Position numbers and translations under genes: made by a program. Shown here piece after piece: positions 18,700 to 36,769 of a stretch of DNA of 64,000 nt (positions are counted from its first letter, which is position 1; each line of letters starts with the position of its first letter). Under the pieces are notes generated by a model. It did not search any database and had not been told where the DNA came from. It saw only the letters and a list, made by a program, of their open reading frames with translations. Source of the DNA: Candidatus Omnitrophota bacterium (GTDB taxonomy: Bacteria > Omnitrophota > Gorgyraeia > Gygaellales > Profunditerraquicolaceae); the NCBI GenBank assembly GCA_023227985.1, contig JALOCB010000006.1, positions 2,631 to 66,630 on the forward strand, in the 5' to 3' direction.

Positions 18700-18704
18700 G
18701 TTTA

Positions 18705-19583
18705 TTATAAACCCGCGGCATCCAACACCAGGGGGACTTTTTTATCCCAGCCGATCGGCATTATATGTATCCCCTGGCACATCGGCCGCAATTGTTTGAT
18801 CAGGCGGCTGGCGATAGCCACGGACTGGCTGACTTTATCCTTAGTCTCTTCCATTTCCTTGATCAATTCATCGGGGACAGAGACCCCGGCGACATTCTTG
18901 TTCATAAACCTGGCCATGCCCGCGGACTTCAACAGGACAATGCCCGCCAGGATCGGGACTTTCAGGTGTTTGGTCTTGGAAAGGAAATTCTCAAAGATAC
19001 CCGCATCATATATAGCCTGGGTCTGAAAGAATTCCGCGCCTGCTTCGATCTTTTTTTCCATCTTGATGATCTGCGGCTCGATCGGGTCAGCCCCGGGATT
19101 GACTACCGCGCCTACGCAAAATTCAGGGGCGCTCCCTTCAAGCTTATTGCCGTTCATATCCGCGCCTGCCTGCAACTGTCTGACTACCTGCAAAAGCTGG
19201 ACCGAATCCAGGTCAAATACCGGCTTGGCCTGCGGATGGTCGCCTAATGTCGGATAATCTCCGGTCAGGATCAACAAGTTCTCTATCCCCAATGCAGCGG
19301 CGGAAAGGATATCCGATTGCAAGGCCAAGCGGTTGCGGTCGCGGCAGGTAACCTGGAATACCGGGTCAAATCCTTTTTGCTTGAGCAGGCTGGAAACAGC
19401 CAACGACCCCAGGCGCATTACCGAACTCTGCAGATCAGTCACATTTATCGCGTCAACCCGGGTGCGGATCAACTCCGCGTCTTCCAGCAATTTAACGGTT
19501 TCTATCCCTTTAGGCGGGCCGATCTCGGAAGTAAGAACAAAACTCCCCTGTCTTATCTTTTCTTTAAAGGTCATAAGAAACAC
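18705..19583 (-). CDS. metF: 5,10-methylenetetrahydrofolate reductase
   Basis: 292 aa TIM-barrel MTHFR. Motifs VTCRDRNR, LILTGDYP and the FAD-binding region. Confidence 0.85.
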   Translation of the reverse strand: MFLMTFKEKIRQGSFVLTSEIGPPKGIETVKLLEDAELIRTRVDAINVTDLQSSVMRLGSLAVSSLLKQKGFDPVFQVTCRDRNRLALQSDILSAAALGIENLLILTGDYPTLGDHPQAKPVFDLDSVQLLQVVRQLQAGADMNGNKLEGSAPEFCVGAVVNPGADPIEPQIIKMEKKIEAGAEFFQTQAIYDAGIFENFLSKTKHLKVPILAGIVLLKSAGMARFMNKNVAGVSVPDELIKEMEETKDKVSQSVAIASRLIKQLRPMCQGIHIMPIGWDKKVPLVLDAAGL

Positions 19584-19671
19584 CCCTGTTTATGTTACGG
19601 CTGGTTTCCCGTTCACGCGGGATATTGATTAAGGACTTTATTTTAACCGTAATACGCGTTTTTGTCAAAAA

Positions 19672-20838: not shown

Positions 20839-21007
20839 AAAACTGACCTTACCATTTTTTAAAGATAACGGGAACCTCCAGGGGGATCACATCCTGGATG
20901 GTTTTAACTGCGTGGCGGATAACTGGCAGGAACCGATACGGTTAGCCGGGGCATAGGAGCAGTATTCAGCCAGCGCTATCATACATCTGGCCATTATAGC
21001 AGTATAC

Positions 21008-21844
21008 TTAAAGTTTTGCCGCTTCCACCAGGTTGCGCATAAGCATGGTAACGGTCAAAGGCCCTACCCCTCCCGGCACAGGAGTGATCCAGGAAGCGCG
21101 TTTCTGGGCCTCATCGAACTCCACGTCTCCGACGATCTTATCCCCGACCCGGTTTATGCCGACATCTATGACCACCGCGCCCTCTTTTATCCATTCGCCC
21201 TTGATCAATCCGGCCTTGCCCACCGCGACAATAAGGACCTCGGCGCTCTTGACATGCTCCTCTAATTTACCGGCCTTGGCCGTGCCGATATGGCAGACCG
21301 TTACCGTGGCCAGCTTTTCCAGCAGCAGCAGGCTTAAAGGCTTGCCGACTATCTCGCTGTGCCCGACAATAACAACTTCCTTCCCGGCGAGATCCAGGCC
21401 GGTGGCGCTCAATAATTCCATAACCGCGTTGGCGGTGCAAGGCACTATCCTGGCTTTGCCGAATACGATCTTGCCCATGTTCGCCGGATGCATCCCTTCC
21501 ACGTCTTTATCCGCAGAGATGAAGCCGCTGATCTTCTTATAATCCATATGCAAAGGCAGAGGCATCTGCACGATTATGCCGTTCACCGCCGGATCATTAT
21601 TAAGATTTCCTATATACTCAATGAGTTTTCCTTCGGTAGCCTGGCTATCCAGTTTGTGCAGCTGGTAATCGACGCCTAAAAGCTCGGCGTTCTTCTTCTG
21701 CGACTTTATATATGATTCCGCGGCCGGATTCTCCCCTACCTGCACGCTGGCCAGCTGAGCCTTTTTTCCCGAGCCCAGGATCTTCTGTTTGATACTCTCT
21801 TTTATTTTTTCCGCGATCGGCTTACCCTCTAATAATTTTGCCAA
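21008..21844 (-). CDS. folD: Bifunctional methylene-THF dehydrogenase / methenyl-THF cyclohydrolase
   Basis: 278 aa. Motifs GIIVQMPLP, the HIGTAK/VIVGHSEIVGKP NAD(P) site, and PVPGGVGPLT. Confidence 0.9.
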   Translation of the reverse strand: MAKLLEGKPIAEKIKESIKQKILGSGKKAQLASVQVGENPAAESYIKSQKKNAELLGVDYQLHKLDSQATEGKLIEYIGNLNNDPAVNGIIVQMPLPLHMDYKKISGFISADKDVEGMHPANMGKIVFGKARIVPCTANAVMELLSATGLDLAGKEVVIVGHSEIVGKPLSLLLLEKLATVTVCHIGTAKAGKLEEHVKSAEVLIVAVGKAGLIKGEWIKEGAVVIDVGINRVGDKIVGDVEFDEAQKRASWITPVPGGVGPLTVTMLMRNLVEAAKL

Positions 21845-25683: not shown

Positions 25684-26724
25684 ATGTTAAACAAAATAAA
25701 AAATACTGTGGAAGAAGCGCTGAAAAAGCATGTAAGCGATATGGACGGCATTTACCCTTTCAAACGGCTCTCTCCTCTGCTTGGCGAAAGCATAAAAGAA
25801 TACATCGCCAGACCCGGAAAAAGGGTCAGGCCGATGCTTTTTGTCCTGGGATACCTTGCCTTTGCCAAAAAACCCGCTTCCGGGCTGTACCAAAGCGCCC
25901 TCTCGATCGAACTGCTTCACGACTTTATGCTCATCCACGATGATATAATCGATAAATCCGATTCCCGCAGAGGCAGGCCTTCAATGCATAAAATGCTGAA
26001 TAACCGGTTAAGGCTGGATAAAAGCGTTAAATTCAACGGCCAGGACCTGGCGATCGTCGTGGGGGATATCATTTACGCTATGGCCATAAAGAGCTTTTTA
26101 TCCATCAAAGAAAACCCGGTAAGGAAAGAAAAGGCCCTGAATAAACTGTTGGACGCCGTTCTTTATACCGGCGCAGGCCAGTTCATCGAGATAATTTACG
26201 GGATAAAACGGATAGATAAAATAAACAAAAACGACATTTACCGCATATATGACCTGAAGACCGCGTATTATACCTTTGCCTATCCCCTGTCCATAGGCGC
26301 CACCCTGGCCGGAGCTCCGGAAAAACAGATCAAAAAAATATTTGATTACGGTCTTATCCTGGGGCGGGCCTTCCAGATAAAAGACGATATACTGGGGATC
26401 TTCGGCAATGAAGAAGAAACCGGCAAATCATCGCTGACCGACCTGCAGGAAGCCAAAAGGACGCTGCTTATATGGTACGCTTACAATAATTCCCCCAAAA
26501 AAGACAGGTCGCAGATAAGCGCAGTATTTTCCAAGAAAAAAGTGGGCCGGACGGATTTAAGCAGGATGCGACAGATAATACACGGGTCCGGGGCGCTGGC
26601 TTACGCGAAGGGGCAAATATCGACCGCAGCGAAAAAGGCGGATAAGATAATCTCTTCCCTGGGCACCGGGGCGAATATCAAAAAACTGCTATCGGAATTC
26701 TACCGCAACATCCTAAGCCTTTAA
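25684..26724 (+). CDS. Polyprenyl diphosphate synthase (trans-IPPS, FPP/GGPP synthase family)
   Basis: This is the only convincing plus-strand gene. The first Asp-rich motif is LIHDDIIDKSD and the second is FQIKDDILG. Confidence 0.85.
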   Translation: MLNKIKNTVEEALKKHVSDMDGIYPFKRLSPLLGESIKEYIARPGKRVRPMLFVLGYLAFAKKPASGLYQSALSIELLHDFMLIHDDIIDKSDSRRGRPSMHKMLNNRLRLDKSVKFNGQDLAIVVGDIIYAMAIKSFLSIKENPVRKEKALNKLLDAVLYTGAGQFIEIIYGIKRIDKINKNDIYRIYDLKTAYYTFAYPLSIGATLAGAPEKQIKKIFDYGLILGRAFQIKDDILGIFGNEEETGKSSLTDLQEAKRTLLIWYAYNNSPKKDRSQISAVFSKKKVGRTDLSRMRQIIHGSGALAYAKGQISTAAKKADKIISSLGTGANIKKLLSEFYRNILSL

Positions 26725-26730
26725 GCCGGA

Positions 26731-27108
26731 TCAAACGAGGGTATTCTGTTCTATGCAATAAATAAGCTTATCCACGGGAACCGGCTTTGCCAGAAACGGC
26801 CTTCCGGAGATGATCCCATTTTGATCCCTTACTTCTCTTTCCGTAACGATAGCGGTCAAGAATACGATGGGTATGTTCTTCAGATCCTCATCCGATCTGA
26901 GCTTCTGGGATATTTCGCCGCCATCAACATTCGGCATAACGATATCCAAAAGGATCAGGTCAGGCTTGAATTCCTTTACCGTGCGGATGGCATTGACGCT
27001 TTGGCTTTCAGCCCTGACCTCGTATTTGCCGGTTTCCTCCAGGTTCAATTTCACCATCCTGCAAAAACTCTCTTCATCGTCGATTATGAGGATCTTTTTT
27101 CTCGGCAT
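26731..27108 (-). CDS. Single-domain response regulator (receiver only)
   Basis: 125 aa. ILIIDDEE, the phospho-acceptor DLILLDIVMP, and the K in LAKP. Confidence 0.85.
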   Translation of the reverse strand: MPRKKILIIDDEESFCRMVKLNLEETGKYEVRAESQSVNAIRTVKEFKPDLILLDIVMPNVDGGEISQKLRSDEDLKNIPIVFLTAIVTEREVRDQNGIISGRPFLAKPVPVDKLIYCIEQNTLV

Positions 27109-27142
27109 TTTCAGCCTCCCTTTCTCTTAAAGATGCCAAACG

Positions 27143-28408
27143 TTAACCCTGCATACGGAACATAAGCATCGCCTTTATCCCGCCCTCTTTTTTATTCGTT
27201 ATGTCGATCCTTCCCCGGTGCATCTCCATTATATTTTTGACGATAGACAACCCCAGGCCGGTCCCGCCTTTGCCGCGCTTGGTGGTGAAGAACGGGTCAA
27301 AAACTTTGTCAATGATCTCTTGAGGTATCCCTATCCCGGTATCTTCGACCTCGACCAAGACAATTTTTTCTCCCGGCTTAAAGATATCCTCTTTTCTGCG
27401 CCCGGCGCCTCCGGTCATTGCCGGGGCCTTTTCGATGCGCATGCTTATGGTCAGCGTCCCGCCTGAAGGCATAGCGTCCGCCGAGTTCATAAAAAGGTTC
27501 AAAAAAACCTGTTCGATCCTGTTCTTATCGATGTTTATCGGCGGGATGCCCTGCGCAATATCCTCGTTCAACTGGATATGGTTCTTTACAAACTGGTGCT
27601 TTACCAGCAAAAGGGAATTTCCCAGCACTGTTCTCAGGTCATGCGGCGAAACATCCAGTTTGGATAAACTGGCGAAATCCAACAAGCCGGTGATAATATC
27701 ATTGGCCCGCATTACCGCGTCGGTCATGGACTTTAAAGCAAAAGAAATATTCTCGTCATCCAGAGGGACCTTCTTAGTCAGGTATTCAACCCCCTGGCTT
27801 ATTATTGCCAGCGGGTTTTTCACTTCGTGGGCCACGCCGCTGGCCAGGCCGCCAACCACCTGCATCTTAGCCGCCTGGATAAAACGCGACTGGGTTTCCT
27901 GGAGCTCAGAGTAGGCCTGCAACAATTTGGCGTTAGCGCTGGTCAGGTCCGAGGTGCGCAAAGCAACCTGCACTTCCATCTCGGACAAGGCCTTTTTCAA
28001 AGCCTCTTGTATGTGTTTGCGCTCAATAGCGTAACGGATGGCGCGGATAAAATGAAAGACATCCTCCCTGCCCTTGACCAGATAATCCTGCGCGCCGGCC
28101 TGCATCGCCTTGATCGCCGTGGATTCGTCATCAAGCCCGGTAAGCACCAGGACGGGGATCCCGGAAGAACGCGCCTGGACTTTGACCAGCGTGTCAATAC
28201 CTTCGCTGTCAGGAAGAAACAGGTCCAGCAAGACAACATCGATATCGTTTTTTACGAGGCGGTCAAGGGCGGGGGCCAGGCGTTCAAACCATTCTGTTTT
28301 ACAGTCGATCTCGCTTACTTTCGCGAGCATATCCTGTATCAGCCTGGCGACCAAACGGTCATCCTCGATCAAAAGGACCTTAATGCTTATATTCTCTTTA
28401 TCGGCCAT
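27143..28408 (-). CDS. Hybrid REC-histidine kinase (N-terminal receiver, then HisKA and HATPase_c)
   Basis: The receiver domain has VLLIEDD...VLLDLFLPD. The H-box is AHEVKNPL. The G1/G2 boxes are DTGIGIP and GGTGLGLSIV. Confidence 0.88.
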   Translation of the reverse strand: MADKENISIKVLLIEDDRLVARLIQDMLAKVSEIDCKTEWFERLAPALDRLVKNDIDVVLLDLFLPDSEGIDTLVKVQARSSGIPVLVLTGLDDESTAIKAMQAGAQDYLVKGREDVFHFIRAIRYAIERKHIQEALKKALSEMEVQVALRTSDLTSANAKLLQAYSELQETQSRFIQAAKMQVVGGLASGVAHEVKNPLAIISQGVEYLTKKVPLDDENISFALKSMTDAVMRANDIITGLLDFASLSKLDVSPHDLRTVLGNSLLLVKHQFVKNHIQLNEDIAQGIPPINIDKNRIEQVFLNLFMNSADAMPSGGTLTISMRIEKAPAMTGGAGRRKEDIFKPGEKIVLVEVEDTGIGIPQEIIDKVFDPFFTTKRGKGGTGLGLSIVKNIMEMHRGRIDITNKKEGGIKAMLMFRMQG

Positions 28409-28435
28409 AACGACGGGTGCTGCTGAAGGGAGTTA

Positions 28436-29188
28436 TCATTCCAGAAGCGCGGAAACCAGGCATATCCTGACCAGCGCGCAGGTCTCAAGATAATCCAGGT
28501 CAAAAGGCTTAACGATATACTCGCATACCCCGAATTTTTTTGCCTCTTCGAACACGGACTCATCCATTATGCCGGTGATCATGATAACGCCCACTTTGTC
28601 ATCCATCTCCCGGATCCGTTTAAGGGTAAGGAGTCCGTCTATCCCGGGCAATTTCACGTCCAGCAATACCAGGATCGGCTTTTCCGCCTTGAATTTCTCC
28701 AGGCCTTCCTCCCCGCTGGCGGCGGTCACCACGCTAAACCCTTTTTTAGACAAAAAATCGCGGATCAACGAAGATATATTCGGGTCATCATCCACAACCA
28801 GTATCTTTTCCTGGCCGTAGCGTTTATTAGGCTGCAATATCTCGTTAATGGCCTTTACAATGACATCTATGCCCAATGCCTTGCGCAGAAAACCGCTCGC
28901 CCCGGCCAGGCGGGCCCGGCGCTCCAACTCGTCGTCGGCAAAACCGGTCACCATCAACACCTTGGTCTTATGGTCGAAATAACGCAGTTTCTCCAGCAGC
29001 TCGACACCGTCCATATCCGGCATCTTGAAATCCAAAAGCATCAATTCGGGGTTGTGCGTCCGCGCCAATTCCAGGGCCTCTTTGCCGCTATGGGTTGTTA
29101 TCACCTTATAGCCGACTTTGGTCAACGCGTCATAAAGAAGTTCGCGGATCTGAGAATCGTTATCCACCACCAGGATTTTGGATTCCAT
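28436..29188 (-). CDS. Tandem-receiver response regulator (REC-REC)
   Basis: Two complete CheY-like domains: ILVVDND...MLLDFKMPD and ILVVDDD...VLLDVKLPG. Confidence 0.85.
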   Translation of the reverse strand: MESKILVVDNDSQIRELLYDALTKVGYKVITTHSGKEALELARTHNPELMLLDFKMPDMDGVELLEKLRYFDHKTKVLMVTGFADDELERRARLAGASGFLRKALGIDVIVKAINEILQPNKRYGQEKILVVDDDPNISSLIRDFLSKKGFSVVTAASGEEGLEKFKAEKPILVLLDVKLPGIDGLLTLKRIREMDDKVGVIMITGIMDESVFEEAKKFGVCEYIVKPFDLDYLETCALVRICLVSALLE

Positions 29189-29203
29189 ATGCCTTTACGC
29201 TCC

Positions 29204-30040
29204 TTATTTATTGACCGCCGTCACAAAAAGGGAAGTAATGATCTCGTCCAGTTTCTGCAGGTCGCAAGGCTTGAGCAGATAATCGCAGGCGCCTTCCTTA
29301 GCCGCCTCTTCCATAACATGCTCGTCCTGGACCGAAGTAAGCATGATCACTTTTATCGATCCATTGATCTTTTTTATCTGGTTCAACACCATTAATCCGT
29401 CCATCCCGGGCATGCGCATATCCAGGAGCACTACCTGAGGAGCCTCTGTCCTTACCGACATAAGCGCATCCATACCGGAAGAGGAGACATCAACCTTATA
29501 GCCTTTTTTGCCCAAAAAATCCTGCAGGACATTGCGTATCTCCAGATTATCATCCACCACAAGTATGCGTCTGCCGGCATTGGACGCATCCGCCGCCAAG
29601 TGAATGCCGCCTTCTTCAGAGCGCAATACCCCCAATATCGTCTTCACCATAAAATGGGTGGAAAAATCCTTCTTCACCACAGCCGAGACCCTGAGGGCCA
29701 GGACTTTAGCCTGGGCTTCATCAGACTGGCTATCAACGGCAAAAATTATTATATGCGCCTGTTTATCGAATCCCCTGATCTTCCGGGCAGTATCCCACCC
29801 GCTTAATCCGGGCATAGCCTCATTCAGGATTATCAGATCGAACCTCTCCTCGGAAAGGCGGGCCAGGGCTTCTTCCCCCGTAGGGACGCAGGTAACCTCA
29901 TAATTCAAAGAAAACAATATCTCGTATAAAAGGTTTCGCGCATCCAGATCATTATCAGCTATCAGTATTTTTTCCTTCCACATAGCTTTATTTATCCTCG
30001 TTCTCCCCCAATTTTTCCTTAACCTTAGCCAATATCTCAA
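29204..30040 (-). CDS. Tandem-receiver response regulator (REC-REC)
   Basis: Two receiver domains: ILIADND...IILNEAMPG and ILVVDDN...VLLDMRMPG. The probable true start is MWKEK at about 29983, which removes the overlap with the next gene. Confidence 0.8.
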   Translation of the reverse strand: MRYWLRLRKNWGRTRINKAMWKEKILIADNDLDARNLLYEILFSLNYEVTCVPTGEEALARLSEERFDLIILNEAMPGLSGWDTARKIRGFDKQAHIIIFAVDSQSDEAQAKVLALRVSAVVKKDFSTHFMVKTILGVLRSEEGGIHLAADASNAGRRILVVDDNLEIRNVLQDFLGKKGYKVDVSSSGMDALMSVRTEAPQVVLLDMRMPGMDGLMVLNQIKKINGSIKVIMLTSVQDEHVMEEAAKEGACDYLLKPCDLQKLDEIITSLFVTAVNK

Positions 30041-30371
30041 AGAGGTCTATGGGTTTATACATTACGTCTTTTTCATTATAACCCAATCCCAACAACTCAT
30101 CAATATCTTTCTGGAGACCTATTGACCCGCTTAAGATTATGACCGGCAGCTTTATCCCCGCGTCATTCAATCCCCTCAAAACATCCATGCCGGTCATTTT
30201 AGGCATGCGCATATCTATGATCAACAGGTCCATCTTGTCGCCGGACTTTAATATATTCAGCGCCTTGTCGCCTTCCAGGTTTTTAAAAACTTCAAACCCT
30301 TTCTTGCGCAAAAAGACGTCGATTATATTCACTATCTCCTGCTCGTCATCTACTACCATTATTTTAGGCAT
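29988..30371 (-). CDS. Single-domain response regulator
   Basis: 127 aa. IMVVDDEQE...LLIIDMRMPKMTG. Confidence 0.85.
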   Translation of the reverse strand: MPKIMVVDDEQEIVNIIDVFLRKKGFEVFKNLEGDKALNILKSGDKMDLLIIDMRMPKMTGMDVLRGLNDAGIKLPVIILSGSIGLQKDIDELLGLGYNEKDVMYKPIDLFEILAKVKEKLGENEDK

Positions 30372-31107
30372 TGCTACCTCCTTCTGGCATTGCCGGCAGT
30401 GTTATGCTGGCTGCCGTCCCTTTCCCCGGAGAGCTTTTCAGATCCAACTCTCCTCCGTGCGCCTTGACTATGCTATAACTTACCGAAAGGCCCAAACCAA
30501 CGCGTTTTTCTTTAGTGGTAAAAAAAGGCTCGAACAACCTGGCCATAACTTCGGCGGACATTCCCGGCCCTGTATCTTCAAAGGTTATCTTCACATTTTC
30601 CCCGGACCGGCAGGTAGACACCTTTATCTGCCCCCCCTTAAACATAGCATCCCGGCTGTTATTCAACAAATTGATAAACACATCCTGCATATGTTTTTCG
30701 TCTATATTAACCTCCGGTAAGCCTACGCCGTAATTTTTCATTATTTTGACATTATCCATAGAAAACTGGGGTTCAATAAGGCTGATCAGCCCTTCCAGGC
30801 TTTTATTTATATCCGCGCGAACTGTCCGGTCCTTCGAAGGCCGGACAAAACCAAGAATTCTTTGTATTATATCTTTTGCCCTTTGGCTTTCCTGGAAGAT
30901 CGCCTGAAGGTTCTTCTTTAATTCCTCGTTATCGATCTTTTCCATCAATGACAACTGAGCCCTGCCCGAAATAACCATTAAAGGGTTGTTCACATCATGG
31001 GCCATAACCTCCACAAATTTACCAAACTGGGCGAACCTCTGCGAATTCTCGCGCTTTTTACGCCGGGCTATATCCCGGTTAATAGAAATAAAATCAAATA
31101 ATCCCAT
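30364..31107 (-). CDS. Cytoplasmic histidine kinase core (HisKA and HATPase_c only, no sensor or TM)
   Basis: The H-box is MAHDVNNPL. The N, G1 and G2 boxes are NLLNNSRDAM, DTGPGM and GLGLS. Confidence 0.85.
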   Translation of the reverse strand: MGLFDFISINRDIARRKKRENSQRFAQFGKFVEVMAHDVNNPLMVISGRAQLSLMEKIDNEELKKNLQAIFQESQRAKDIIQRILGFVRPSKDRTVRADINKSLEGLISLIEPQFSMDNVKIMKNYGVGLPEVNIDEKHMQDVFINLLNNSRDAMFKGGQIKVSTCRSGENVKITFEDTGPGMSAEVMARLFEPFFTTKEKRVGLGLSVSYSIVKAHGGELDLKSSPGKGTAASITLPAMPEGGSNA

Positions 31108-31108
31108 A

Positions 31109-31471
31109 TCACCCCAGAAATTTAACGATTTTTGCCGCCATCTCAGCGGAATCGAACGGTTTCAACATATAATCGTCCGCCTTGCAAAGTTTAACCTTCT
31201 CCACAACGCAATCGGAACTGGCAGTAACCAGGATAACAGGTATCCCCCTAAGACCCTCGTCAGCCTTCATCTGAATGCATACCTCTGTTCCTTCCATAAC
31301 AGGAAGGCGCAGGTCCAACAATACCAAGTCGGGTTTCTTCTCTCTGATCAGCTCTAAGCCTTCTTTGCCGTTTACCGCCACATAAACCTCATAGCCCATC
31401 TTTTTCAGCCTGAAAACCTCAACCTTCAACACATCAGGCTCATCATCCACAACCACGATTTTTTTCGCCAT
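31109..31471 (-). CDS. Single-domain response regulator
   Basis: 120 aa. IVVVDDEPD...VLLDLRLPVMEG. Confidence 0.85.
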   Translation of the reverse strand: MAKKIVVVDDEPDVLKVEVFRLKKMGYEVYVAVNGKEGLELIREKKPDLVLLDLRLPVMEGTEVCIQMKADEGLRGIPVILVTASSDCVVEKVKLCKADDYMLKPFDSAEMAAKIVKFLG

Positions 31472-31482
31472 TGTTCCCTTCT

Positions 31483-31497
31483 CAAGACCCGGTCTTG
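31483..31497. repeat. 15-bp palindrome CAAGACCCGGTCTTG, copy 1
   Basis: Perfect palindrome around a central C. Lies in the 27-bp gap between the hybrid HK stop and the REC start. Confidence 0.7.
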
Positions 31498-31498
31498 A

Positions 31499-34288
31499 TC
31501 ACAAAAGATAATTCAGCCACTTTTCCAACAGCTTTATATCAAAAGGCTTGCCGATCATCGGCAAGGCTTCCTTTTTAATATACTCTTTTATACGGTCGAT
31601 TTTTACCTCGTATCCGGAGATTATCAAAAGCGGGATATCCTTGGTCCTTACACTGCCTTTAAGCCTGCCGATCACCTCGTAACCGCTCATCCTGGGCATC
31701 TTAATATCGAGTATTATCAGGTCCGGCGGCTGGGCTTCTATCAGGGCCAAAGCCTCTTCGCCTCCGGCAGCCTCGGTGATATTGCTATAACCGAACTTCT
31801 CCAGTATCTTGCGCAATGTGCTCAAAACCTCGGGTTCATCATCCACCAGCATTATCCTGCTTCTTGATCTTTCCTCCTGCGTATTAACCACGGATCTATA
31901 CGCCTTATCCAGCAACTCCTCCACGGTTTTAGCCTCATCCGGAAAAACAACGTAGCTGCTGGAAAATTGCGCCTTTAACTCTTCATCTATCTTAAAAATA
32001 GTTTCTTTAACTGCCGCGCGCAGCCTTAACTTAAGCCCCTGGGCTTCCAGCCTGGGAATAAGGCTGGACACAAACAGTTCATTCTCTACCCTGCGGATCA
32101 CCAGATCAGAAACGCCTATCTGGCCTTTTAAAGATTCCTGGATCTCCCGGCAAATAGCCTCTGTTTTATCCGAACCTGCCCGGATTTTGATCTGCCCGTA
32201 ATTATCCCACCGCAAAACGAATAAACCGAAAACAAAATACGCTTTTTCTATCGCGTCTTTGCCCTGCTTTATGCTCTCCTCCAATATCTTTTCTATGCCG
32301 TACCTGGGGAGCGTAAAAATAAATTTGGTTCCGGCGCCGACCGCGCTTTCAACATAAATGGCCCCGCCATGCTTTTCAATGATCTCCTTGGATATAGCCA
32401 AACCCAGCCCTGTGCCGCCTTTCCTTTCTTTAACATCTCCCAACTGCTCGAAGCTCTGAAAAAGCCGGGGAATATCTTCCTGCTTAACCCCGGGCCCGGT
32501 ATCTTCCACTGTAACGCATACGGCGTTCCCTTTCTTTGTGGTAGCCAAAATGATGCTTCCTTTTTCAGTGAATTTAATGGCGTTATTCACCAGGTTGGTT
32601 ATGACCTGGATGATCTTGTCGCGGTCAAACCTGAATACAGGCAGGTTCTCGTCAAGTTTGATCACCAGGTCCAGCCCCTTGGCTTTTATCAGGGCGGTCA
32701 TTGTCCTCTCGATCTCCAGGGCCACTTCATTGATATCGTTGTCCTGGAAATTGAACTGGGCCTTGCCTGCATCCAGCTTCTGGAAATCAAGGACATCGTT
32801 TATCAGGCGGGCCAAACGGTCCACATTCCTCTTAGCCGTATCCAGAAAATCTTTTTGCTCAAGGTTAAGCTCTCCGGCCGATCCGTCCAGTACAATATTT
32901 ATGCCCTCCTTGATCGCGGTCAGCGGGGTCCTTAACTCGTGGGAAACGATAGAGGTGAATTTTGATTTTGTTTCCATTGCCTCTTTAAGCCTTGCCTCCG
33001 CTTTCTTGCGCCCGGTAATATCCCGGATGGATTCAATAGCGCCGATAAAATGCCCCATATCGTCAAAAAGAGGAGCGGCCACTACCCAGAGATATGCGCC
33101 TTTTCCCTGGTAAAAGCCGGGGATGAACGTTTCCGCAAACAGATTATTCCCTTTTTTCTCTATAAAATCGTATTTCTTGCTTAATTTCGAATTATGCTGG
33201 AAGACAAAATCGATCATTACCGGCCGCGCCTGCCCGTAAAAAGGCACGGCATAGGCGTAATCGCCTTTGCCGATCATATCCTTCTTGGATACCCCGGTCA
33301 TATCCTCTAAAGCCCGGTTCCAGGCAATCACCTTTTTTTCCTGGTCTATAACAAAGGTGGCGTCAGGCAGGAATTCGATTATATCCAGGAGCTTGCGGTT
33401 GCTCGACTGAAGCCCTTCTTCGGCCCTTTTACGGCTGGTTATCTCCTGGAGCAAAACGCGGTTAAGCCTGCCCAGTTCCGCGGTCTTCTGTTGTTCTATA
33501 GCCACTAATTTCTGCTCTTTTTCTATGGCCAATCTCAGATCATCGCTCATCTTGTTGAACAGCCCGATCAACCTGCCGATCTCATCCTCCTTCTTGGGAA
33601 TTATCTTATGGCTGAAATCACCGTGGGCTACCAGGTTCATCCCTTTTCCCAGGTCTTTGATCGGCCGGATTATTGCCTGCAGCAGAAAGAAAAAAGTCAG
33701 GATTATGATGACCATTAGCCCGAACAGGGAAAGATAGATATTGCGTTTCCAGGTAGCCTTTTCCTCTGCGAGCTTATCCTTCCAATCCAGGACTATTCTC
33801 AAGACCCCGAGAACTTTTTTATCCCGGCCATGGCAGCCAAAACAGTTTTTTTCATTAAAAATCGGTATGCTCTTGGCAAAGACGCTCTCTCCTGTTTTCT
33901 TGCGTATCTCCACTCCCTGGATCTCTTCGCCCCTTAAAAGCCTGTCCAGATACTTAACCTGGGGCTTTTCGCCGATCCGGCTCTTATCCGTGCTTCTTTT
34001 AATGACCCCCAGATAATCCGTCAAATGGATGTCATTGACCTCTTTTAAATTACGGTAATTGTCGAATTGCAGTTGGATTATATCCTGGTCGCCGCCCAGC
34101 ATAGGATGGCGCATCGCGGTCAGAATAACGTTCGAGAAGGTGCTTCCTTCGTTGACGCTGTGCGTCAGCATTATCCTGTTCTGGTTACTTATGTTCATCA
34201 CGGTCATTATGCCCAGTATAGAGAATAATATGAAAAAGAGCATTATTATGCTGCGGGCGCTCAAGGAGTTATTTATATTTTTTATCAC
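31499..34288 (-). CDS. Hybrid sensor histidine kinase: TM, periplasmic CxxCH domain, TM, HAMP, PAS, HisKA, HATPase_c, unknown module, C-terminal REC
   Basis: 929 aa. Two TM helices flank a periplasmic region of about 140 aa that contains NCFGCHG, a c-type heme-binding motif. HAMP is followed by a PAS-like region (FVIDQEKKVIAWNRALEDMTG). The H-box is SHELRTPL. G-boxes are DTGPGV and GGTGLGLAIS. The C-terminal receiver is IMLVDDEPE...IILDIKMPRMSG. Confidence 0.85.
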   Translation of the reverse strand: MIKNINNSLSARSIIMLFFILFSILGIMTVMNISNQNRIMLTHSVNEGSTFSNVILTAMRHPMLGGDQDIIQLQFDNYRNLKEVNDIHLTDYLGVIKRSTDKSRIGEKPQVKYLDRLLRGEEIQGVEIRKKTGESVFAKSIPIFNEKNCFGCHGRDKKVLGVLRIVLDWKDKLAEEKATWKRNIYLSLFGLMVIIILTFFFLLQAIIRPIKDLGKGMNLVAHGDFSHKIIPKKEDEIGRLIGLFNKMSDDLRLAIEKEQKLVAIEQQKTAELGRLNRVLLQEITSRKRAEEGLQSSNRKLLDIIEFLPDATFVIDQEKKVIAWNRALEDMTGVSKKDMIGKGDYAYAVPFYGQARPVMIDFVFQHNSKLSKKYDFIEKKGNNLFAETFIPGFYQGKGAYLWVVAAPLFDDMGHFIGAIESIRDITGRKKAEARLKEAMETKSKFTSIVSHELRTPLTAIKEGINIVLDGSAGELNLEQKDFLDTAKRNVDRLARLINDVLDFQKLDAGKAQFNFQDNDINEVALEIERTMTALIKAKGLDLVIKLDENLPVFRFDRDKIIQVITNLVNNAIKFTEKGSIILATTKKGNAVCVTVEDTGPGVKQEDIPRLFQSFEQLGDVKERKGGTGLGLAISKEIIEKHGGAIYVESAVGAGTKFIFTLPRYGIEKILEESIKQGKDAIEKAYFVFGLFVLRWDNYGQIKIRAGSDKTEAICREIQESLKGQIGVSDLVIRRVENELFVSSLIPRLEAQGLKLRLRAAVKETIFKIDEELKAQFSSSYVVFPDEAKTVEELLDKAYRSVVNTQEERSRSRIMLVDDEPEVLSTLRKILEKFGYSNITEAAGGEEALALIEAQPPDLIILDIKMPRMSGYEVIGRLKGSVRTKDIPLLIISGYEVKIDRIKEYIKKEALPMIGKPFDIKLLEKWLNYLL

Positions 34289-36390
34289 TGCTTCCTCCTT
34301 AAGAGCATTTTTACCCGCGCCAGCAGCTTATCGCTGTCAAAAGGTTTGGTCAGGTAATCGTCCGCCCCGGCGTCAAGGCCCTGCAGCTCGCTTTCCTTAT
34401 CCTCCCTGGCGGTCAAAAGGATGACCGGGATCACCGCGGTCTCCAGTTTCGACCGTAAAGCCTTAACCTCTTCAAACCCGTTCATTTTGGGCATAGTAAC
34501 GTCGCTAATGACCAGATCCGGCTTTTCCTTATTACAGAACGCCACTGCCTCCTGACCATCCCTGGCCTTGACCACCCGATAGCCCGCGTCGGTGAGCCTT
34601 TTTTCCAGGATCTTCAGTATATCTTCCTCATCGTCTACAATAAGTATCTTTATATCCTTGCCGGCCTGCGCCGACCTAAGGACAGCTTCTTCCTCCGAGG
34701 CGGCGCCGACTATGTTGAAGATCTCTTCCAGAGTAGTGATCCCCGCGGATACTTTCTCCAGGCCTGCTCTGGCCAAAGTCTTCAGGCCGCTCTTCTTTGC
34801 CTCCGACAGAATCTCGTCTTCCGCGAACCTCTGGGCGATCATCCCCCGTATCTTTTCGCTGATCCTGAATATCTCAAAAATCGCGGTCCTGCCCAGAAAA
34901 CCGGTGAATCCGCAATAGCTGCAGCCCGAACCATGATAGAACTCCTTTATACCAAGCTGGTCTATATGGCTTTTAAATAGGCTTAACAAGTGCCCATCCG
35001 GTTGATATTTCTCTTTGCAATGCGGGCAGATCATCTTGACCAGCCTCTGGGCCACGACAAGGATCAACGCAGAAGATATCAGATACGGCTCCAGACCTAT
35101 ATCCACCAAACGGGTTATTGAGGCAACCGCGTTATTCGTATGCAGCGTGGATAATACCAGGTGCCCGGTCAAAGAAGCCTGGAAAGCCATTTCTGCTGTC
35201 TCCTTGTCCCTTATCTCGCCTATCAGGATAACATTCGGGTCCTGCCGCAGAATGCTCTTTAAGGCGTTGGCAAAAGTAAGATCCTTGACCGGATTTACCT
35301 GCATCTGGTTCAAGCCATCGATCAGATATTCTATGGGGTCTTCTATAGTAATTATATTATTTTTCTCTGTTTTAACGACATTAAGAGTGGCATAAAGAGT
35401 GGAAGTCTTGCCCGACCCTGTGGGCCCGGTGACCAGGATCAACCCTTGAGCGGCAGTGATCGCCTGTTTATAGATATCCAGATCCGGGCCTTGAAAACCC
35501 ATACTTTCCAGCCCGGTTTTTGCCGCCTGAATATCCAACAACCTCATCTCGATCTTTTCCCCGTAAAAAGTAGGTATAGTCGAGACCCGCAGATCGACCT
35601 TCCTGCCGTTGACCGATATCTTAATCCTTCCATCCTGGGGCTTGCGGTTCTCCGCGGTATCCAACTGCGCCAGGACCTTCAAACGCGCGGCCAGCGAAGA
35701 ATGCAGGCTGACCGGAAGGTCCATAATATTGCGCAGGTCGCCGTCTATCCTGTACCTGACCTTGACCGTCTTCTCCTGAGACTCGATATGGATATCGCTG
35801 GCCCTTTGTTTTACCGCGTCGCTCAAAATAAGGTTGCAAATCTTTACTGCCGGGACATCTTCGGATCTTTGCGCCCGCTCATCCAAAAAGAATTCAGACG
35901 CGTCTTCGGTAACGATCTCGACCTTATCCGCTCCCATGACATTCTTCAGGATGTCATAAATATTATCCTCCGCCTGATAATATTTCTTAATGTGATTGTT
36001 TATCTCGCTCTTGGCGGCCAGTAGCGGCTTTACGCTCATTCCCGTGTTCAACCTTATATCATCCAGGGCCATAATATCCTGGGGATCGCTCATCGCCAAT
36101 ACCAGCGCGTCACCCTCCTTGCGCAAGGGCAATATCCCGTAACGCATAGCCAGTTCATACGGGACCAGCCTGACAGCAGAAGGGTCTATTGTTTCCTTGC
36201 TCAACTGCGTAACAGGCATATTGAATATCTTGGATGAAGCGCTGACCAGCTGCTCCTCCGCGATAAAACCCATCTCCACTAATAATTCCTGAAGCGGCTT
36301 CTTAGCGCCGATGCGCTTGATCCTGGCGTCGTTAAGCTGTTCCGCCGTTATGAGCCCTTCCCTGATAAGCTCGTCGATCAAAACAGTCAT
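34285..36390 (-). CDS. GspE/PilB-family secretion ATPase fused to a C-terminal receiver (REC) domain
   Basis: 701 aa. T2SE N-terminal domain. Walker A is GPTGSGKT. Asp and His boxes are ILIGEIRD and LVLSTLHTN. A tetracysteine motif is CPHC...GSGCSYC. The C-terminal receiver (aa ~583-701) is ILIVDDEED...LVISDVTMPKMNG...YLTKP. Confidence 0.85.
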   Translation of the reverse strand: MTVLIDELIREGLITAEQLNDARIKRIGAKKPLQELLVEMGFIAEEQLVSASSKIFNMPVTQLSKETIDPSAVRLVPYELAMRYGILPLRKEGDALVLAMSDPQDIMALDDIRLNTGMSVKPLLAAKSEINNHIKKYYQAEDNIYDILKNVMGADKVEIVTEDASEFFLDERAQRSEDVPAVKICNLILSDAVKQRASDIHIESQEKTVKVRYRIDGDLRNIMDLPVSLHSSLAARLKVLAQLDTAENRKPQDGRIKISVNGRKVDLRVSTIPTFYGEKIEMRLLDIQAAKTGLESMGFQGPDLDIYKQAITAAQGLILVTGPTGSGKTSTLYATLNVVKTEKNNIITIEDPIEYLIDGLNQMQVNPVKDLTFANALKSILRQDPNVILIGEIRDKETAEMAFQASLTGHLVLSTLHTNNAVASITRLVDIGLEPYLISSALILVVAQRLVKMICPHCKEKYQPDGHLLSLFKSHIDQLGIKEFYHGSGCSYCGFTGFLGRTAIFEIFRISEKIRGMIAQRFAEDEILSEAKKSGLKTLARAGLEKVSAGITTLEEIFNIVGAASEEEAVLRSAQAGKDIKILIVDDEEDILKILEKRLTDAGYRVVKARDGQEAVAFCNKEKPDLVISDVTMPKMNGFEEVKALRSKLETAVIPVILLTAREDKESELQGLDAGADDYLTKPFDSDKLLARVKMLLRRKQ

Positions 36391-36394
36391 ATTG

Positions 36395-36769
36395 TTAGGT
36401 CCTTGGTTTATCCAACAGCGCCTTAATGGCAGCCATCAGGGCTTGGGGGTCATAAGGTTTTTCGATATAGGCATCAGCCCCGTCGCTAAGGACCTTCTTC
36501 TTGTATTCCGGGTCCGTCACTCCGGTAAGCACAATGACCGGGATGTATCTGACCTGATTGGATAATCTAATGTTCTTTAAGACCGCCTGTCCACCGCCCG
36601 CGGGCAGCATCAGATCCAGGATGATCAAATCAGGCGGGGTTTTATGGATCATTGCTATACCCTGATAAGCGTCCTGAGCCGCCATTACCTCAAAGCCCTC
36701 CTGGGCCAACCTTTTATGCAATACCTTCACAACATCCAGGTCGTCCTCAATGATCATTATATTGCGCAT
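36395..36769 (-). CDS. Single-domain response regulator
   Basis: 124 aa. IMIIEDD...IILDLMLPAGGG. Confidence 0.85.
   Translation of the reverse strand: MRNIMIIEDDLDVVKVLHKRLAQEGFEVMAAQDAYQGIAMIHKTPPDLIILDLMLPAGGGQAVLKNIRLSNQVRYIPVIVLTGVTDPEYKKKVLSDGADAYIEKPYDPQALMAAIKALLDKPRT

What the first reader, a model, noticed from the sequence alone, without database searches (positions are those of the whole stretch)
26731..36769. Ten-gene phosphorelay supercluster with six stand-alone receivers, two REC-REC proteins, three kinases and a receiver-fused secretion ATPase
Ten consecutive co-oriented genes have minimal or overlapping junctions (34285/34288, 30364/30371). In transcription order they encode:
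- REC
- GspE/PilB-ATPase-REC
- a large hybrid sensor HK with a periplasmic CxxCH domain and PAS
- REC
- a sensorless HK core
- REC
- REC-REC
- REC-REC
- REC-HK
- REC

No protein in the cluster has a DNA-binding output domain. The only non-phosphorelay output is the secretion/pilus-type ATPase. This looks like a chemotaxis-style multi-step phosphorelay, with phosphate sinks and a branched His-Asp relay. It would control a motor ATPase directly rather than transcription. No Che proteins (CheA/CheW/MCP) and no pilin, GspF/PilC or secretin genes are in the window.
Basis: partly seen in the sequence, partly recalled or inferred. Interest (0 to 1): 0.82.

Follow-up and report, generated by a model that had tools for sequence, protein, structure and literature searches.

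The report
Phosphorylation-gated pilus ATPase signalling cluster

Summary
There is no DNA-binding domain, Che protein, Hpt, pilin, PilC/GspF or secretin in the window. Ten of the 11 receivers keep the Asp/Thr(Ser)/Lys phospho-acceptor set.

The organism is a Candidatus Omnitrophota MAG. In 11 distinct relatives' loci, whose neighbourhoods differ except in the closest relative, the ATPase-REC gene is always directly preceded by a g1-type single receiver. Where downstream sequence exists, it sits with a g3-type sensor kinase and further receivers. The conserved unit is four genes (g1-g4). Genes g5-g10 have clear orthologues only in the 87%-identical relative.

The fused ATPase clade (199/200 bootstraps) is separate from the phylum's canonical PilB. 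In the one long contig examined, canonical PilB lies among PilC, secretin, pilin and PilM genes. Canonical PilB keeps the c-di-GMP motif core (117/120); the fused clade never does (0/120).

Best reading: a PilB paralogue gated by His-Asp phosphorylation, with the stand-alone receivers acting as sinks or modulators. "Chemotaxis-style multi-step phosphorelay" is not supported. PilB-REC fusions are common in databases, but I found no paper describing them. This is a new variant of a known kind, of moderate interest.

The parts
36395..36769 (-). g1: single-domain receiver (124 aa), conserved core component. It is always encoded immediately upstream of the ATPase-REC gene.
   Evidence: Pfam Response_reg 1.4e-25. 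E/D/D/T/K acceptor set. An orthologue at 42-84% identity lies directly upstream of the ATPase in all seven loci compared by BLAST. Pfam-annotated receivers occupy the same position in L170, L171 and L172. The gap to g2 is 4 nt.
34285..36390 (-). g2: PilB/GspE-family hexameric ATPase with a C-terminal receiver (701 aa). The conserved output of the module.
   Evidence: Pfam MshEN 1.4e-22, T2SSE 5e-131, Response_reg 9e-32. Closest solved structures are Geobacter PilB 5zfr/5tsg, E about 1e-140. At least 120 cluster representatives at 53-100% identity share the architecture. Monophyletic clade, 199/200.
35965..36390 (-). [quoted passage not shown]
   Evidence: The RLG triplets of both 24-residue motifs read VLI and PLQ. 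0 of 120 fused-family members carry [RK][LIVM]GxxLLxxG, against 117 of 120 canonical Omnitrophota PilB. G11I abolishes binding in V. cholerae MshE (PMC5013675).
34717..35865 (-). g2 ATPase core (aa 176-558): Walker A GPTGSGKT, Walker B/Asp box, His box and tetracysteine Zn site
   Evidence: These residues are invariant in 16 family members: G322-T329, G391/E392/R394/D395, T408-H410, H417, C455/C458/C490/C493.
34309..34647 (-). g2 receiver domain (aa 582-694), joined to the ATPase by a linker of variable length
   Evidence: D586, D587, D630, T660 and K682 are invariant in 16 sequences. The linker columns are gapped and vary in length. The best NCBIfam matches are PleD/RpaB/PhoB-type receivers.
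31499..34288 (-). g3: membrane hybrid sensor kinase (929 aa): TM, periplasmic CxxCH domain, TM, HAMP, PAS, HisKA, HATPase, degenerate GGDEF-like insert, REC. Conserved core kinase.
   Evidence: Pfam. The kinase core is 44-62% identical to the kinase in the modules of L002, L003, L005 and L085-L088, and 89% to that of L001. The start codon overlaps the g2 stop (GTGA).
33830..33844 (-). CFGCH (aa 149-153): candidate haem-c attachment site in the periplasmic domain of g3
   Evidence: Read directly from the sequence and conserved in the L001 orthologue. Similarity of the domain to the Geobacter haem-c PAS-like MCP sensor is weak: Pfam PF21563 E 1.4e-4, below its cut-off, and PDB 3b47 E 0.19.
31109..31471 (-). 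g4: single-domain receiver (120 aa), conserved core component, encoded after the sensor kinase
   Evidence: Pfam 5.6e-24. Full acceptor set. Orthologues at 42-82% identity in all seven loci compared.
30364..31107 (-). g5: kinase core without a sensor (247 aa). Differs from its orthologue by the absence of two PAS domains, most simply an in-frame deletion.
   Evidence: Pfam HisKA+HATPase. It aligns to aa 240-483 of the 484-aa PAS-PAS kinase in L001 at 73% identity, and the DNA alignment shows the missing block starting just after the start codon.
29988..30371 (-). g6: single-domain receiver (127 aa), lineage-specific
   Evidence: Pfam 5.3e-19. D/D/D/S/K. A clear orthologue only in L001.
29204..29983 (-). 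g7: pseudo-receiver plus receiver (259 aa from the ATG at 29983), lineage-specific
   Evidence: Two Response_reg stretches. The first has N at the phospho-Asp position, the second is canonical. The layout matches Xanthomonas DrdR (PMC13507683). The revised start lies 4 nt after the g6 stop.
28436..29188 (-). g8: REC-REC protein (250 aa), lineage-specific
   Evidence: Two Response_reg stretches, 1.9e-56. Both keep the phospho-Asp; the first has D13N.
27143..28408 (-). g9: REC-HisKA-HATPase kinase (421 aa), lineage-specific
   Evidence: Pfam. H-box AHEVKNPL is present. An orthologue only in L001.
26731..27108 (-). g10: single-domain receiver (125 aa), the last gene. It ends 6 nt from the convergent polyprenyl synthase gene.
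   Evidence: Pfam 6.9e-19. Full acceptor set. 92% orthologue in L001, and only weak matches (42-46%) in L088.

Best explanation
The region is an operon-like two-component signalling cluster of an Omnitrophota bacterium. It is built around a phylum-wide four-gene core:
- a stand-alone receiver (g1);
- a PilB-type hexameric pilus/secretion ATPase carrying its own C-terminal receiver (g2);
- a membrane sensor kinase (g3);
- a second stand-alone receiver (g4).

In this lineage six more signalling genes (g5-g10) have been added.

Shown:
- The domain content and intact catalytic and phospho-acceptor residues.
- Conservation of the core in relatives whose surrounding genes differ.

Inferred:
- The sensor kinase responds to a periplasmic (possibly haem-c/redox) signal and a cytoplasmic PAS signal, and phosphorylates the receiver on the ATPase.
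- Phosphorylation switches ATPase activity, hexamer state or docking to the PilC/PilM platform of type IV pilus machinery encoded elsewhere. Pilus extension, which Omnitrophota are thought to use to attach to surfaces or host cells, would then be gated by His-Asp signalling instead of c-di-GMP.
- g1 and g4 compete for phosphoryl groups or bind the ATPase, as PilG/PilH, PixG/PixH and DrdR do in trans.
- g5-g10 add further inputs and buffering.
For: Domains and order.

Receivers: 10 of 11 have the acceptor set. The ATPase receiver residues D586/D587/D630/T660/K682, and Walker A/B, the His box and the Zn cysteines, are invariant in 16 homologues.

Organism and family: the best 120 listed cluster representatives (53-100% identity) all have the architecture. 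Those that carry a source name are almost all labelled Omnitrophica/Omnitrophota.

Synteny:
- A receiver lies immediately upstream of the ATPase in 11 of 11 distinct loci.
- A sensor kinase and further receivers lie in the same module in all 10 loci with enough downstream sequence.
- The surrounding genes differ among the distant relatives: V-ATPase, Fe-S oxidoreductases, CPSase, glycogen genes, Feo/CorA.

Orthology of g1, g2-REC, the g3 core and g4 across loci.

Control: 74 unfused PilB loci average 0.45 REC and 0.47 HK genes.

Paralogy: the fused clade has 199/200 bootstraps, the canonical Omnitrophota PilB clade 200/200, and they are never sisters.

Canonical PilB lies among two T2SSF genes, a secretin, N_methyl pilins and PilM_2 in L089 and next to a pilin in L031. 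No fused locus has such genes.

c-di-GMP motif: 117/120 canonical against 0/120 fused. G11I abolishes binding in MshE (PMC5013675).

Precedent for receivers acting directly on PilB: phospho-PixG binds PilB1 and PilC, and PixH antagonises it (PMC11181946). The tandem pseudo-REC/REC protein DrdR binds PilB/PilT and raises their ATPase activity 3.5- to 4.8-fold (PMC13507683).

Type IVa pili are reported in most Omnitrophota genomes (PMC10066038).
Against: - No pilin, PilC/GspF, PilM or secretin gene lies beside the fused ATPase in any locus examined, so its partner machine is unknown.
- I could not show that the window's own genome, or any single genome, holds both the fused and the canonical ATPase plus a pilus gene set.
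- The ATPase scores below NCBI's equivalog cut-offs for both PilB (605.8 vs 675.65) and GspE (574.9 vs 630.25).
- No phosphotransfer, ATPase or expression data exist.
- Which kinase serves which receiver is unknown.
- The hybrid form of g3 is not conserved, and no Hpt is present.
- Loss of c-di-GMP binding is inferred from motif residues only.
- Co-transcription is not shown. The promoter and terminator scans were uninformative.
Confidence: 0.6

Rival explanations
1. The fused ATPase powers a machine other than the type IVa pilus. Candidates are a type II-like secretion system exporting the large surface or effector proteins typical of Omnitrophota, a DNA-uptake pilus, or a still unrecognised platform. 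The two-component module gates secretion rather than pilus extension.
For: - The ATPase scores almost as well on the GspE model as on PilB, and below both cut-offs.
- Canonical Omnitrophota loci already hold two ATPases and two T2SSF genes, so several related machines exist.
- Secretion and pilus genes flank giant-protein genes in this phylum (bioRxiv 10.64898/2026.06.07.730766).
- The window itself has a 2729-aa ORF.
Against: - The best structural and family matches are PilB.
- No secretion component is adjacent in any of 11 loci.
- The giant ORF is 12 kb away, with housekeeping genes in between.
Confidence: 0.2
2. The ATPase-REC protein is mainly a regulator rather than a motor. It might form mixed or competing hexamers with canonical PilB, titrate the PilC platform, or serve as a phosphate sink whose ATPase domain senses cellular energy state.
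For: - The orphan location away from any machine genes.
- Co-existence of canonical PilB in the phylum.
- The many receivers suggest phosphate buffering.
Against: All catalytic motifs, including Walker A/B, the His box and the Zn site, are invariant across the family. This argues for selection on real ATP turnover. Conservation at 53-100% identity across the family is typical of an enzyme with a mechanical role.
Confidence: 0.12
3. One reading: a chemotaxis-style, branched, multi-step His-Asp-His-Asp phosphorelay in which all ten proteins form one pathway ending on the ATPase.
For: - A hybrid kinase (g3) and a REC-kinase (g9) are present.
- One relative has an Hpt gene directly after the ATPase (L088).
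- There are multiple stand-alone receivers.
Against: - There is no Hpt, CheA, CheW or MCP in the window.
- g5-g10 have clear orthologues only in the closest relative.
- The hybrid receiver on the core kinase is absent from most relatives' core kinases.
Confidence: 0.06
4. The clustering is coincidental: unrelated two-component genes accumulated next to an ATPase in a compact, strand-biased genome.
For: 49 of 50 ORFs in the window are co-oriented, and 24 of 38 gaps outside the cluster are also 34 nt or less.
Against: The same core is found in 11 of 11 relatives' loci, in different neighbourhoods among the distant ones. Unfused PilB loci average under 0.5 REC genes.
Confidence: 0.02

Closest known systems
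Type IVa pilus extension ATPase PilB (e.g. Geobacter PilB, PDB 5zfr/5tsg/6olj; Myxococcus PilB 3jc8)
   Same: MshEN-type N-terminal domain plus a T2SSE ATPase core with Walker A/B, His box and tetracysteine Zn site. Alignment over aa 7-561 with E about 1e-140. PilB is the best NCBIfam model.
   Different: - An extra C-terminal receiver domain.
- Below the PilB equivalog cut-off.
- Not encoded with pilC, pilT, pilM or pilins.
- A separate clade from the phylum's own canonical PilB.
- Lacks the c-di-GMP motif.
MshE / PA14_29490-type c-di-GMP-activated ATPases (Wang et al. 2016, PMC5013675)
   Same: The same MshEN-ATPase architecture. The regulatory input is delivered to a domain fused to the motor.
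   Different: The two RLGxxLLxxG... motifs are degenerate here: Gly11 is Ile and Gly40 is Gln, and the Arg residues are lost. The input would instead come through a receiver at the other end of the protein.
Receiver proteins that act on PilB in trans: Synechocystis PixG/PixH (Tax1), P. aeruginosa PilG/PilH (Pil-Chp), Xanthomonas DrdR
   Same: Phospho-receivers directly control the pilus extension motor, and paired receivers have opposing roles (PMC11181946). DrdR has a pseudo-REC+REC layout like g7 and stimulates PilB/PilT ATPase activity (PMC13507683).
   Different: - Those systems use CheA-type kinases with MCPs, or an orphan regulator.
- Their receiver is a separate protein, with a PATAN output in PixG.
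- Here the receiver is fused in cis, the kinases are classical HisKA sensor kinases, and no Che components exist.
- Sequence homology of g7 to DrdR was not tested.
Multi-component His-Asp networks with dual-receiver proteins and REC-kinases (Myxococcus RedCDEF, Leptospira LvrA/LvrB). These are recalled from my own knowledge, apart from the NCBIfam LvrB hit.
   Same: REC-REC proteins, REC-HisKA-HATPase kinases and stand-alone receivers are encoded together. g9 and g5 give partial matches to the LvrB model.
   Different: Scores are far below the family cut-offs (125 and 113 vs 500), so no membership. The outputs of those systems are developmental or transcriptional, not an ATPase.
PilB-REC fusions in other phyla (Actinomycetota L012/L054/L065, Deltaproteobacteria L006, N-terminal REC in L051)
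   Same: A PilB-family ATPase fused to a receiver. The Actinomycetota ones are also orphans, lying next to Mrp/ApbC and MgtE. 82 of the top 150 representatives at 50% identity have a C-terminal REC and 8 an N-terminal REC.
   Different: They form separate clades at 37-45% identity. The contigs examined, which are short, show no g1-type receiver upstream and no kinase/receiver module. This suggests independent or anciently diverged fusions.

Membership tests
PilB/GspE secretion-ATPase superfamily (Pfam T2SSE PF00437) | T2SSE domain above the gathering score, with Walker A, Walker B/Asp box, His box and tetracysteine Zn motif | tested here: met
   437 bits vs cut-off 24.9. The motif residues are invariant in 16 family members.
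Type IV-A pilus assembly ATPase PilB (NCBIfam TIGR02538 equivalog) | Score at or above the curated equivalog cut-off | tested here: not met
   605.8 bits vs 675.65. The canonical Omnitrophota PilB also falls just short at 656-657 bits.
Type IV-A pilus assembly ATPase PilB | Encoded with, or shown to act on, PilC platform, PilM/N/O and pilin genes | tested here: not met
   None of these genes is in the window or next to the fused gene in 11 loci. Action on a distant machine cannot be tested with these tools.
Type II secretion ATPase GspE (NCBIfam TIGR02533 equivalog) | Score at or above the curated cut-off | tested here: not met
   574.9 bits vs 630.25.
MshEN c-di-GMP receptor domain | Two tandem 24-residue motifs RLGxx(L/V/I)(L/V/I)xxG(L/V/I)(L/V/I)xxxxLxxxLxxQ | tested here: not met
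   The Pfam MshEN fold is present, but the motif core is absent in 0/120 fused proteins against 117/120 canonical ones. The Gly11 and Gly40 equivalents are Ile and Gln. Actual binding was not tested.
Two-component receiver (REC) domains | Acidic pocket, phospho-acceptor Asp, conserved Thr/Ser and Lys (CheY D12/D13/D57/T87/K109) | tested here: met
   10 of 11 domains meet it; g7a has N at position 57 and g8a has D13N.
HisKA-type histidine kinases | HisKA with an H-box His, plus the HATPase_c catalytic domain | tested here: met
   g3, g5 and g9 are all above the gathering scores. The H-boxes SHELRTP, AHDVNNP and AHEVKNP are visible.
Chemosensory (Che / Pil-Chp / Tax-like) system | CheA-type kinase (Hpt, CheW-like domains), CheW adaptor, MCP receptor | tested here: not met
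   No such Pfam family in any of the 50 ORFs of the window, nor in the gene tables of the relatives' modules.
Multi-step His-Asp-His-Asp phosphorelay | Hybrid kinase plus an Hpt domain or protein plus a terminal receiver | tested here: not met
   The hybrid kinase g3 and the receivers are present, but there is no Hpt in the window. An Hpt gene follows the ATPase only in L088. A divergent Hpt missed by Pfam cannot be excluded.
Haem-c PAS-like periplasmic sensor (Geobacter GSU0582/GSU0935 type, Pfam PF21563) | A CxxCH haem-attachment motif within a domain that matches the family model | tested here: inconclusive
   CFGCH is present and conserved in the L001 orthologue. The Pfam score is 22.5 bits, below the cut-off of 27, and the PDB 3b47 match has E 0.19. 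Haem binding cannot be tested here.
GGDEF diguanylate cyclase | GG(D/E)EF active-site motif and a score above gathering | tested here: not met
   g3 aa 669-802 scores 22.6 bits against 23.8, and the motif position reads VENELF.
DrdR-like tandem-receiver regulators of PilB/PilT | An N-terminal pseudo-receiver plus a functional C-terminal receiver, with physical binding to PilB/PilT | tested here: inconclusive
   g7 has the pseudo-REC+REC layout. Homology to DrdR was not tested because no sequence was at hand, and binding cannot be tested here.

The most novel reading that the evidence does not exclude
Omnitrophota run pilus or secretion machinery with interchangeable motors that differ in regulatory input. 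The canonical PilB would be gated by c-di-GMP. A phylum-wide paralogue would have traded c-di-GMP binding for a fused phospho-receiver and be driven by a dedicated sensor kinase with two auxiliary receivers. A hexameric motor ATPase would then be a bona fide response-regulator output domain. In these ultra-small, putatively host-attached bacteria, this module would decide when to extend pili toward a host or surface.
Probability: 0.3. Interest if true: 0.7.

Novelty: new variant of a known kind. Interest (0 to 1): 0.55.

Why it matters
Control of type IV pilus motors by receiver proteins is known only in trans (PilG/PilH, PixG/PixH, DrdR), and how those proteins change PilB activity is still unclear. 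A natural cis fusion, conserved with its kinase and two partner receivers, offers a minimal system that could be rebuilt from purified parts to ask how phosphorylation gates a PilB hexamer.

The contrast with the c-di-GMP-motif-bearing canonical paralogue in the same phylum suggests that regulatory inputs on these motors are modular and can be swapped.

For Omnitrophota, pili are thought to mediate attachment to hosts or prey. The genome papers I read do not mention two-component signalling, so this module is a concrete candidate for the switch that controls that behaviour.

The value is limited because every functional step is still inferred, and because PilB-REC fusions are already present, unremarked, in public databases.

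Tried and rejected
1. Genome-contig scan with the full-length ATPase alignment. Only one fused Omnitrophota locus (L005) came back. The scan was still useful as a control set and for finding fusions in other phyla.

2. Metagenome-contig scan with the receiver part of g2. It returned only generic receiver matches at 37-52% identity, and I did not examine their context. It added nothing to the synteny survey.

3. Matching 'longest contig' lengths between the fused and canonical PilB hit lists, to show both in one genome. There was no convincing match, so co-occurrence in one genome remains unproven.

4. Promoter and terminator scans. Counts did not differ clearly from shuffles, so they say nothing about operon structure.

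5. Rfam and tRNA scans of the window found nothing, so there is no riboswitch upstream of g1.

6. Literature searches for a described PilB/GspE-REC fusion. None was found. The MshEN paper mentions MshEN-REC combinations only in general terms.

7. Structure prediction of g2 was considered and not run. The tool returns no inter-domain contact or PAE data, and a monomer model would not show how the receiver affects a hexamer.

8. Rejected: GGDEF activity for the g3 insert, because the motif is degenerate.

9. Rejected: membership of g5 and g9 in NCBIfam T2SS_HK or LvrB, because the scores are far below the cut-offs.

Full report
**1. What is there**

The window is strongly strand-biased. 49 of the 50 ORFs I annotated lie on the minus strand, and GC skew is negative throughout.

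Ten consecutive minus-strand ORFs lie between glycogen phosphorylase (36879-39362) and a convergent polyprenyl synthase (25684-26724, plus strand). Pfam gives their domains in transcription order:

| Gene | Coordinates | Domains |
|---|---|---|
| g1 | 36395-36769 | REC |
| g2 | 34285-36390 | MshEN-T2SSE-REC |
| g3 | 31499-34288 | TM, periplasmic domain, TM, HAMP, PAS, HisKA, HATPase, weak GGDEF-like stretch, REC |
| g4 | 31109-31471 | REC |
| g5 | 30364-31107 | HisKA-HATPase only |
| g6 | 29988-30371 | REC |
| g7 | 29204-29983 | REC-REC |
| g8 | 28436-29188 | REC-REC |
| g9 | 27143-28408 | REC-HisKA-HATPase |
| g10 | 26731-27108 | REC |

- Gaps between the genes are 4, -4, 27, 1, -8, 4, 15, 27 and 34 nt, once g7 is started at its ATG (29983) rather than the overlapping TTG.
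- The rest of the window is housekeeping: rho, coaE, polA, Wood-Ljungdahl genes, trmD, L19, tgt, queA, ruvB, IF-2, nusA, isoprenoid and glycogen genes.
- No Che protein, Hpt, DNA-binding response regulator, T2SSF, secretin or pilin is present. No pilin N-methylation motif occurs in any frame.

- The title double-counts receivers. There are four single-REC and two REC-REC proteins.
- The ATPase also has an MshEN domain.
- g3 has a degenerate GGDEF-like insert.

**2. Are the parts functional?**

I aligned the 11 receiver domains to E. coli CheY, typing the reference from memory. Ten keep the phospho-acceptor Asp, the Thr/Ser and the Lys. The first receiver of g7 has Asn at the acceptor position and is a pseudo-receiver. 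g8a has D13N.

All three kinases show an H-box histidine.

In an alignment of 16 g2 homologues, Walker A, Walker B/Asp box, His box and the four Zn-site cysteines are invariant. So are the receiver residues D586, D587, D630, T660 and K682. The linker between ATPase and receiver varies in length.

**3. How much is more than chance?**

Co-orientation means nothing in this window. Tight spacing is only modest evidence. The median gap is 4 nt inside the cluster and 19 nt outside, and 24 of 38 outside gaps are also 34 nt or less.

The strong evidence is comparative.
- g2 is 100% identical to a protein of a Candidatus Omnitrophica MAG. The best 120 cluster representatives (53-100% identity) all have the MshEN-T2SSE-REC architecture, and those that carry a source name are almost all labelled Omnitrophica/Omnitrophota. 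One is named Ca. Ancaeobacter aquaticus, which PMC9324843 places in Auribacterota.
- I fetched the genomic context of ten such homologues and one more locus from a genome scan (L005).
- In 11 of 11 distinct loci a small receiver gene sits 1-24 nt upstream of the ATPase-REC gene.
- In all ten loci with enough downstream sequence, a PAS/dCache sensor kinase and one to several further receivers belong to the same gene run.
- In the distant relatives the genes around the module differ from locus to locus: V-type ATPase, Fe-S oxidoreductases, carbamoyl-phosphate synthase, glycogen enzymes, Feo/CorA.
- As a control, 74 unfused PilB loci from many phyla, pulled by the same scan, carry on average 0.45 REC and 0.47 HK genes within about 10 kb on each side.

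The second refutation condition, genes dispersed in relatives, is also not met.

**4. What is conserved**

BLAST of individual domains separates orthologues cleanly:
- the upstream receiver always matches g1 best (42-84% identity);
- the fused receiver matches g2-REC (45-91%);
- one kinase per locus matches the g3 core (44-89%);
- the receiver after the kinase matches g4 (42-82%).

Genes g5-g10 have clear orthologues only in L001, the 87%-identical relative that is syntenic with the window including its flanks.

The ten-gene cluster is therefore a four-gene phylum-wide core plus a six-gene lineage-specific extension.

Details vary between lineages:
- The core kinase is a hybrid (with REC) in the window, L170, L171 and L088, but not in L002, L085, L086 or L087.
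- L088 has an Hpt gene directly after the ATPase and a sigma-54 activator.
- L170 has a REC-HTH_8 protein.
The DNA alignment shows the missing block, about 237 codons, starting just after the start codon. The remaining core is less conserved (73%) than its neighbours (82-92%).

**5. What kind of ATPase**

- The closest solved structures are Geobacter PilB (E about 1e-140 over aa 7-561).
- PilB is the best NCBIfam model (605.8 bits) and GspE the second (574.9). Both are below their equivalog cut-offs.
- Omnitrophota also have a large family of unfused, roughly 557-aa PilB proteins, about 41% identical to g2.
- In the one long contig examined (L089), this canonical PilB lies among a second ATPase, two T2SSF genes, a secretin, N_methyl pilins and PilM_2. 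L031 has a pilin next to it.
- A neighbour-joining tree of 102 ATPase cores (384 columns, 200 bootstraps) gives the fused Omnitrophota clade 199/200 and the canonical clade 200/200. The two are never sisters.
- Fusions in Actinomycetota (L012, L054, L065), a deltaproteobacterial MAG (L006) and an N-terminal REC version (L051) fall elsewhere. The Actinomycetota ones are also orphans.
- In the library clustered at 50% identity, the Omnitrophota family collapses to one representative. Even so, 82 of the best 150 representatives carry a C-terminal REC and 8 an N-terminal REC. PilB-REC fusion as such is widespread in public data.

**6. The regulatory contrast**

The MshEN domain of V. cholerae MshE binds c-di-GMP through two tandem RLGxxLLxxGLI...LxxxLxxQ motifs, and G11I abolishes binding (PMC5013675).

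The canonical Omnitrophota PilB keeps the motif core in 117 of 120 sequences, for example KKIGEILIEQGF...KVGEILVKKGV in P0151. The fused family has it in 0 of 120. In g2 the two RLG triplets read VLI and PLQ.

The fused paralogue thus lacks the sequence signature of c-di-GMP control and carries a receiver instead. That it truly fails to bind c-di-GMP is an inference.

**7. Sensor input**

The periplasmic domain of g3 (about aa 35-183) carries CFGCH at aa 149-153, conserved in the L001 orthologue.

It resembles the haem-c PAS-like sensor of Geobacter chemoreceptors only weakly. Pfam PF21563 gives E 1.4e-4, below its cut-off, and PDB 3b47 gives E 0.19.

In most relatives the core kinase has a dCache domain instead, so the sensed signal differs between lineages.

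**8. Mechanism**

Shown: a conserved gene module in which a classical sensor kinase, two stand-alone receivers and a receiver-fused, catalytically intact PilB paralogue travel together.

Inferred: the kinase phosphorylates the fused receiver. This changes ATPase activity, hexamer state or docking to a PilC/PilM platform encoded elsewhere. g1 and g4 act as competing acceptors or as ATPase-binding modulators. g5-g10 add inputs and buffering.

Precedents for receivers acting directly on PilB:
- Phosphorylated PixG binds PilB1 and PilC, while PixH antagonises it (PMC11181946).
- The pseudo-REC+REC protein DrdR binds PilB and PilT and raises their ATPase activity 3.5- to 4.8-fold (PMC13507683). g7 has the same layout.
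- The g2 receiver is most similar to PleD/PhoB/RpaB-type receivers. From general knowledge, those dimerise on phosphorylation, so pairing of neighbouring subunits in the hexamer is one conceivable switch. This is speculation.

Type IVa pili are reported in most Omnitrophota genomes and are proposed to mediate attachment to hosts (PMC10066038). Neither that paper nor a 2026 complete-genome preprint mentions two-component systems or response regulators.

**9. Weak points**

- The partner machine is unknown.
- No single genome was shown to hold both ATPase types.
- No expression or biochemical data exist.
- Kinase-receiver pairing is unknown.
- Promoter, terminator and Rfam scans gave nothing.
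- Two collection scans were swamped by generic motifs.

**10. Verdict**

"Chemotaxis-style multi-step phosphorelay" fails its defining features (no CheA/CheW/MCP, no Hpt), and only four of the ten genes are broadly conserved.

This is a new variant of a known kind, namely receiver control of a type IV pilus-family motor, here fused in cis and paired with loss of the c-di-GMP motif. Interest is moderate.

Noticed in passing
window 6590-14779 (-): A very long ORF (2729 aa) with HEAT repeats and a phosphoglucomutase-like domain I, otherwise unannotated. Long ORFs are a known trait of Omnitrophota.
   Followed up: no
window 36879-39362, 2133-3548, 54950-57593; L087 3050-9548; L170 1-7508: Glycogen/alpha-glucan genes lie beside the REC/ATPase-REC module in three independent neighbourhoods: glgP immediately upstream in the window and L001, GH77/GH57/amylase in L087, and GH57/GlgC/DUF4912 in L170. 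This could be chance or a functional link to carbon storage.
   Followed up: partly
window 30364-31107 vs L001 15324-16778: g5 lacks about 237 codons (two PAS domains) present in its orthologue in the 87%-identical relative. The missing block starts just after the start codon, and the remaining kinase core is less conserved (73%) than neighbouring genes (82-92%).
   Followed up: yes
window 31883-32284 (g3 aa 669-802): A degenerate GGDEF-like insert lies between the kinase ATPase domain and the receiver of g3. The motif reads VENELF, and the insert is conserved in the L001 orthologue. Its function is unknown.
   Followed up: partly
window 15588-21844 (-): A run of Wood-Ljungdahl and C1 genes (ACS/CODH beta subunit, a pyridine-nucleotide oxidoreductase, MTHFR, FolD, FTCD_C cyclodeaminase) suggests an acetogenic-type metabolism for this organism.
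   Followed up: no
whole window: Extreme gene-strand bias: 49 of 50 annotated ORFs are on the minus strand, with uniformly negative GC skew. The only plus-strand gene is the polyprenyl synthase (25684-26724), which abuts the end of the cluster.
   Followed up: partly
L088 12133-12438 and 15573-17012; L170 14732-15316: Relatives' modules can contain an Hpt protein directly after the ATPase, a sigma-54 activator response regulator, or a REC-HTH_8 protein. Some lineages therefore add a true phosphorelay step or transcriptional outputs.
   Followed up: partly
L172 906-3235: In the locus of the homologue named Ca. Ancaeobacter aquaticus (Auribacterota), an IS66-family transposase and a DruA-domain gene sit between receiver genes just upstream of the ATPase-REC gene. 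This hints at mobility or rearrangement of the module.
   Followed up: no
L054 3836-7295; L065 1-5457: Actinomycetota PilB-REC fusion genes are also orphans. They are consistently followed by an Mrp/ApbC-type Fe-S P-loop NTPase gene, with MgtE upstream in L065. This is a separate uncharacterised fused family.
   Followed up: partly
window 57660-58037 and 60632-62377 (-): Two ORFs have no Pfam match: a 125-aa coiled-coil-like protein with an N-terminal hydrophobic segment, and a 581-aa protein.
   Followed up: no
L089 890-4820: The canonical Omnitrophota pilus/secretion locus holds a second MshEN-T2SSE ATPase (602 aa, slightly better on the GspE model than on PilB), two T2SSF genes and a stand-alone 281-aa MshEN-domain protein. 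The phylum therefore has several paralogous motors.
   Followed up: partly
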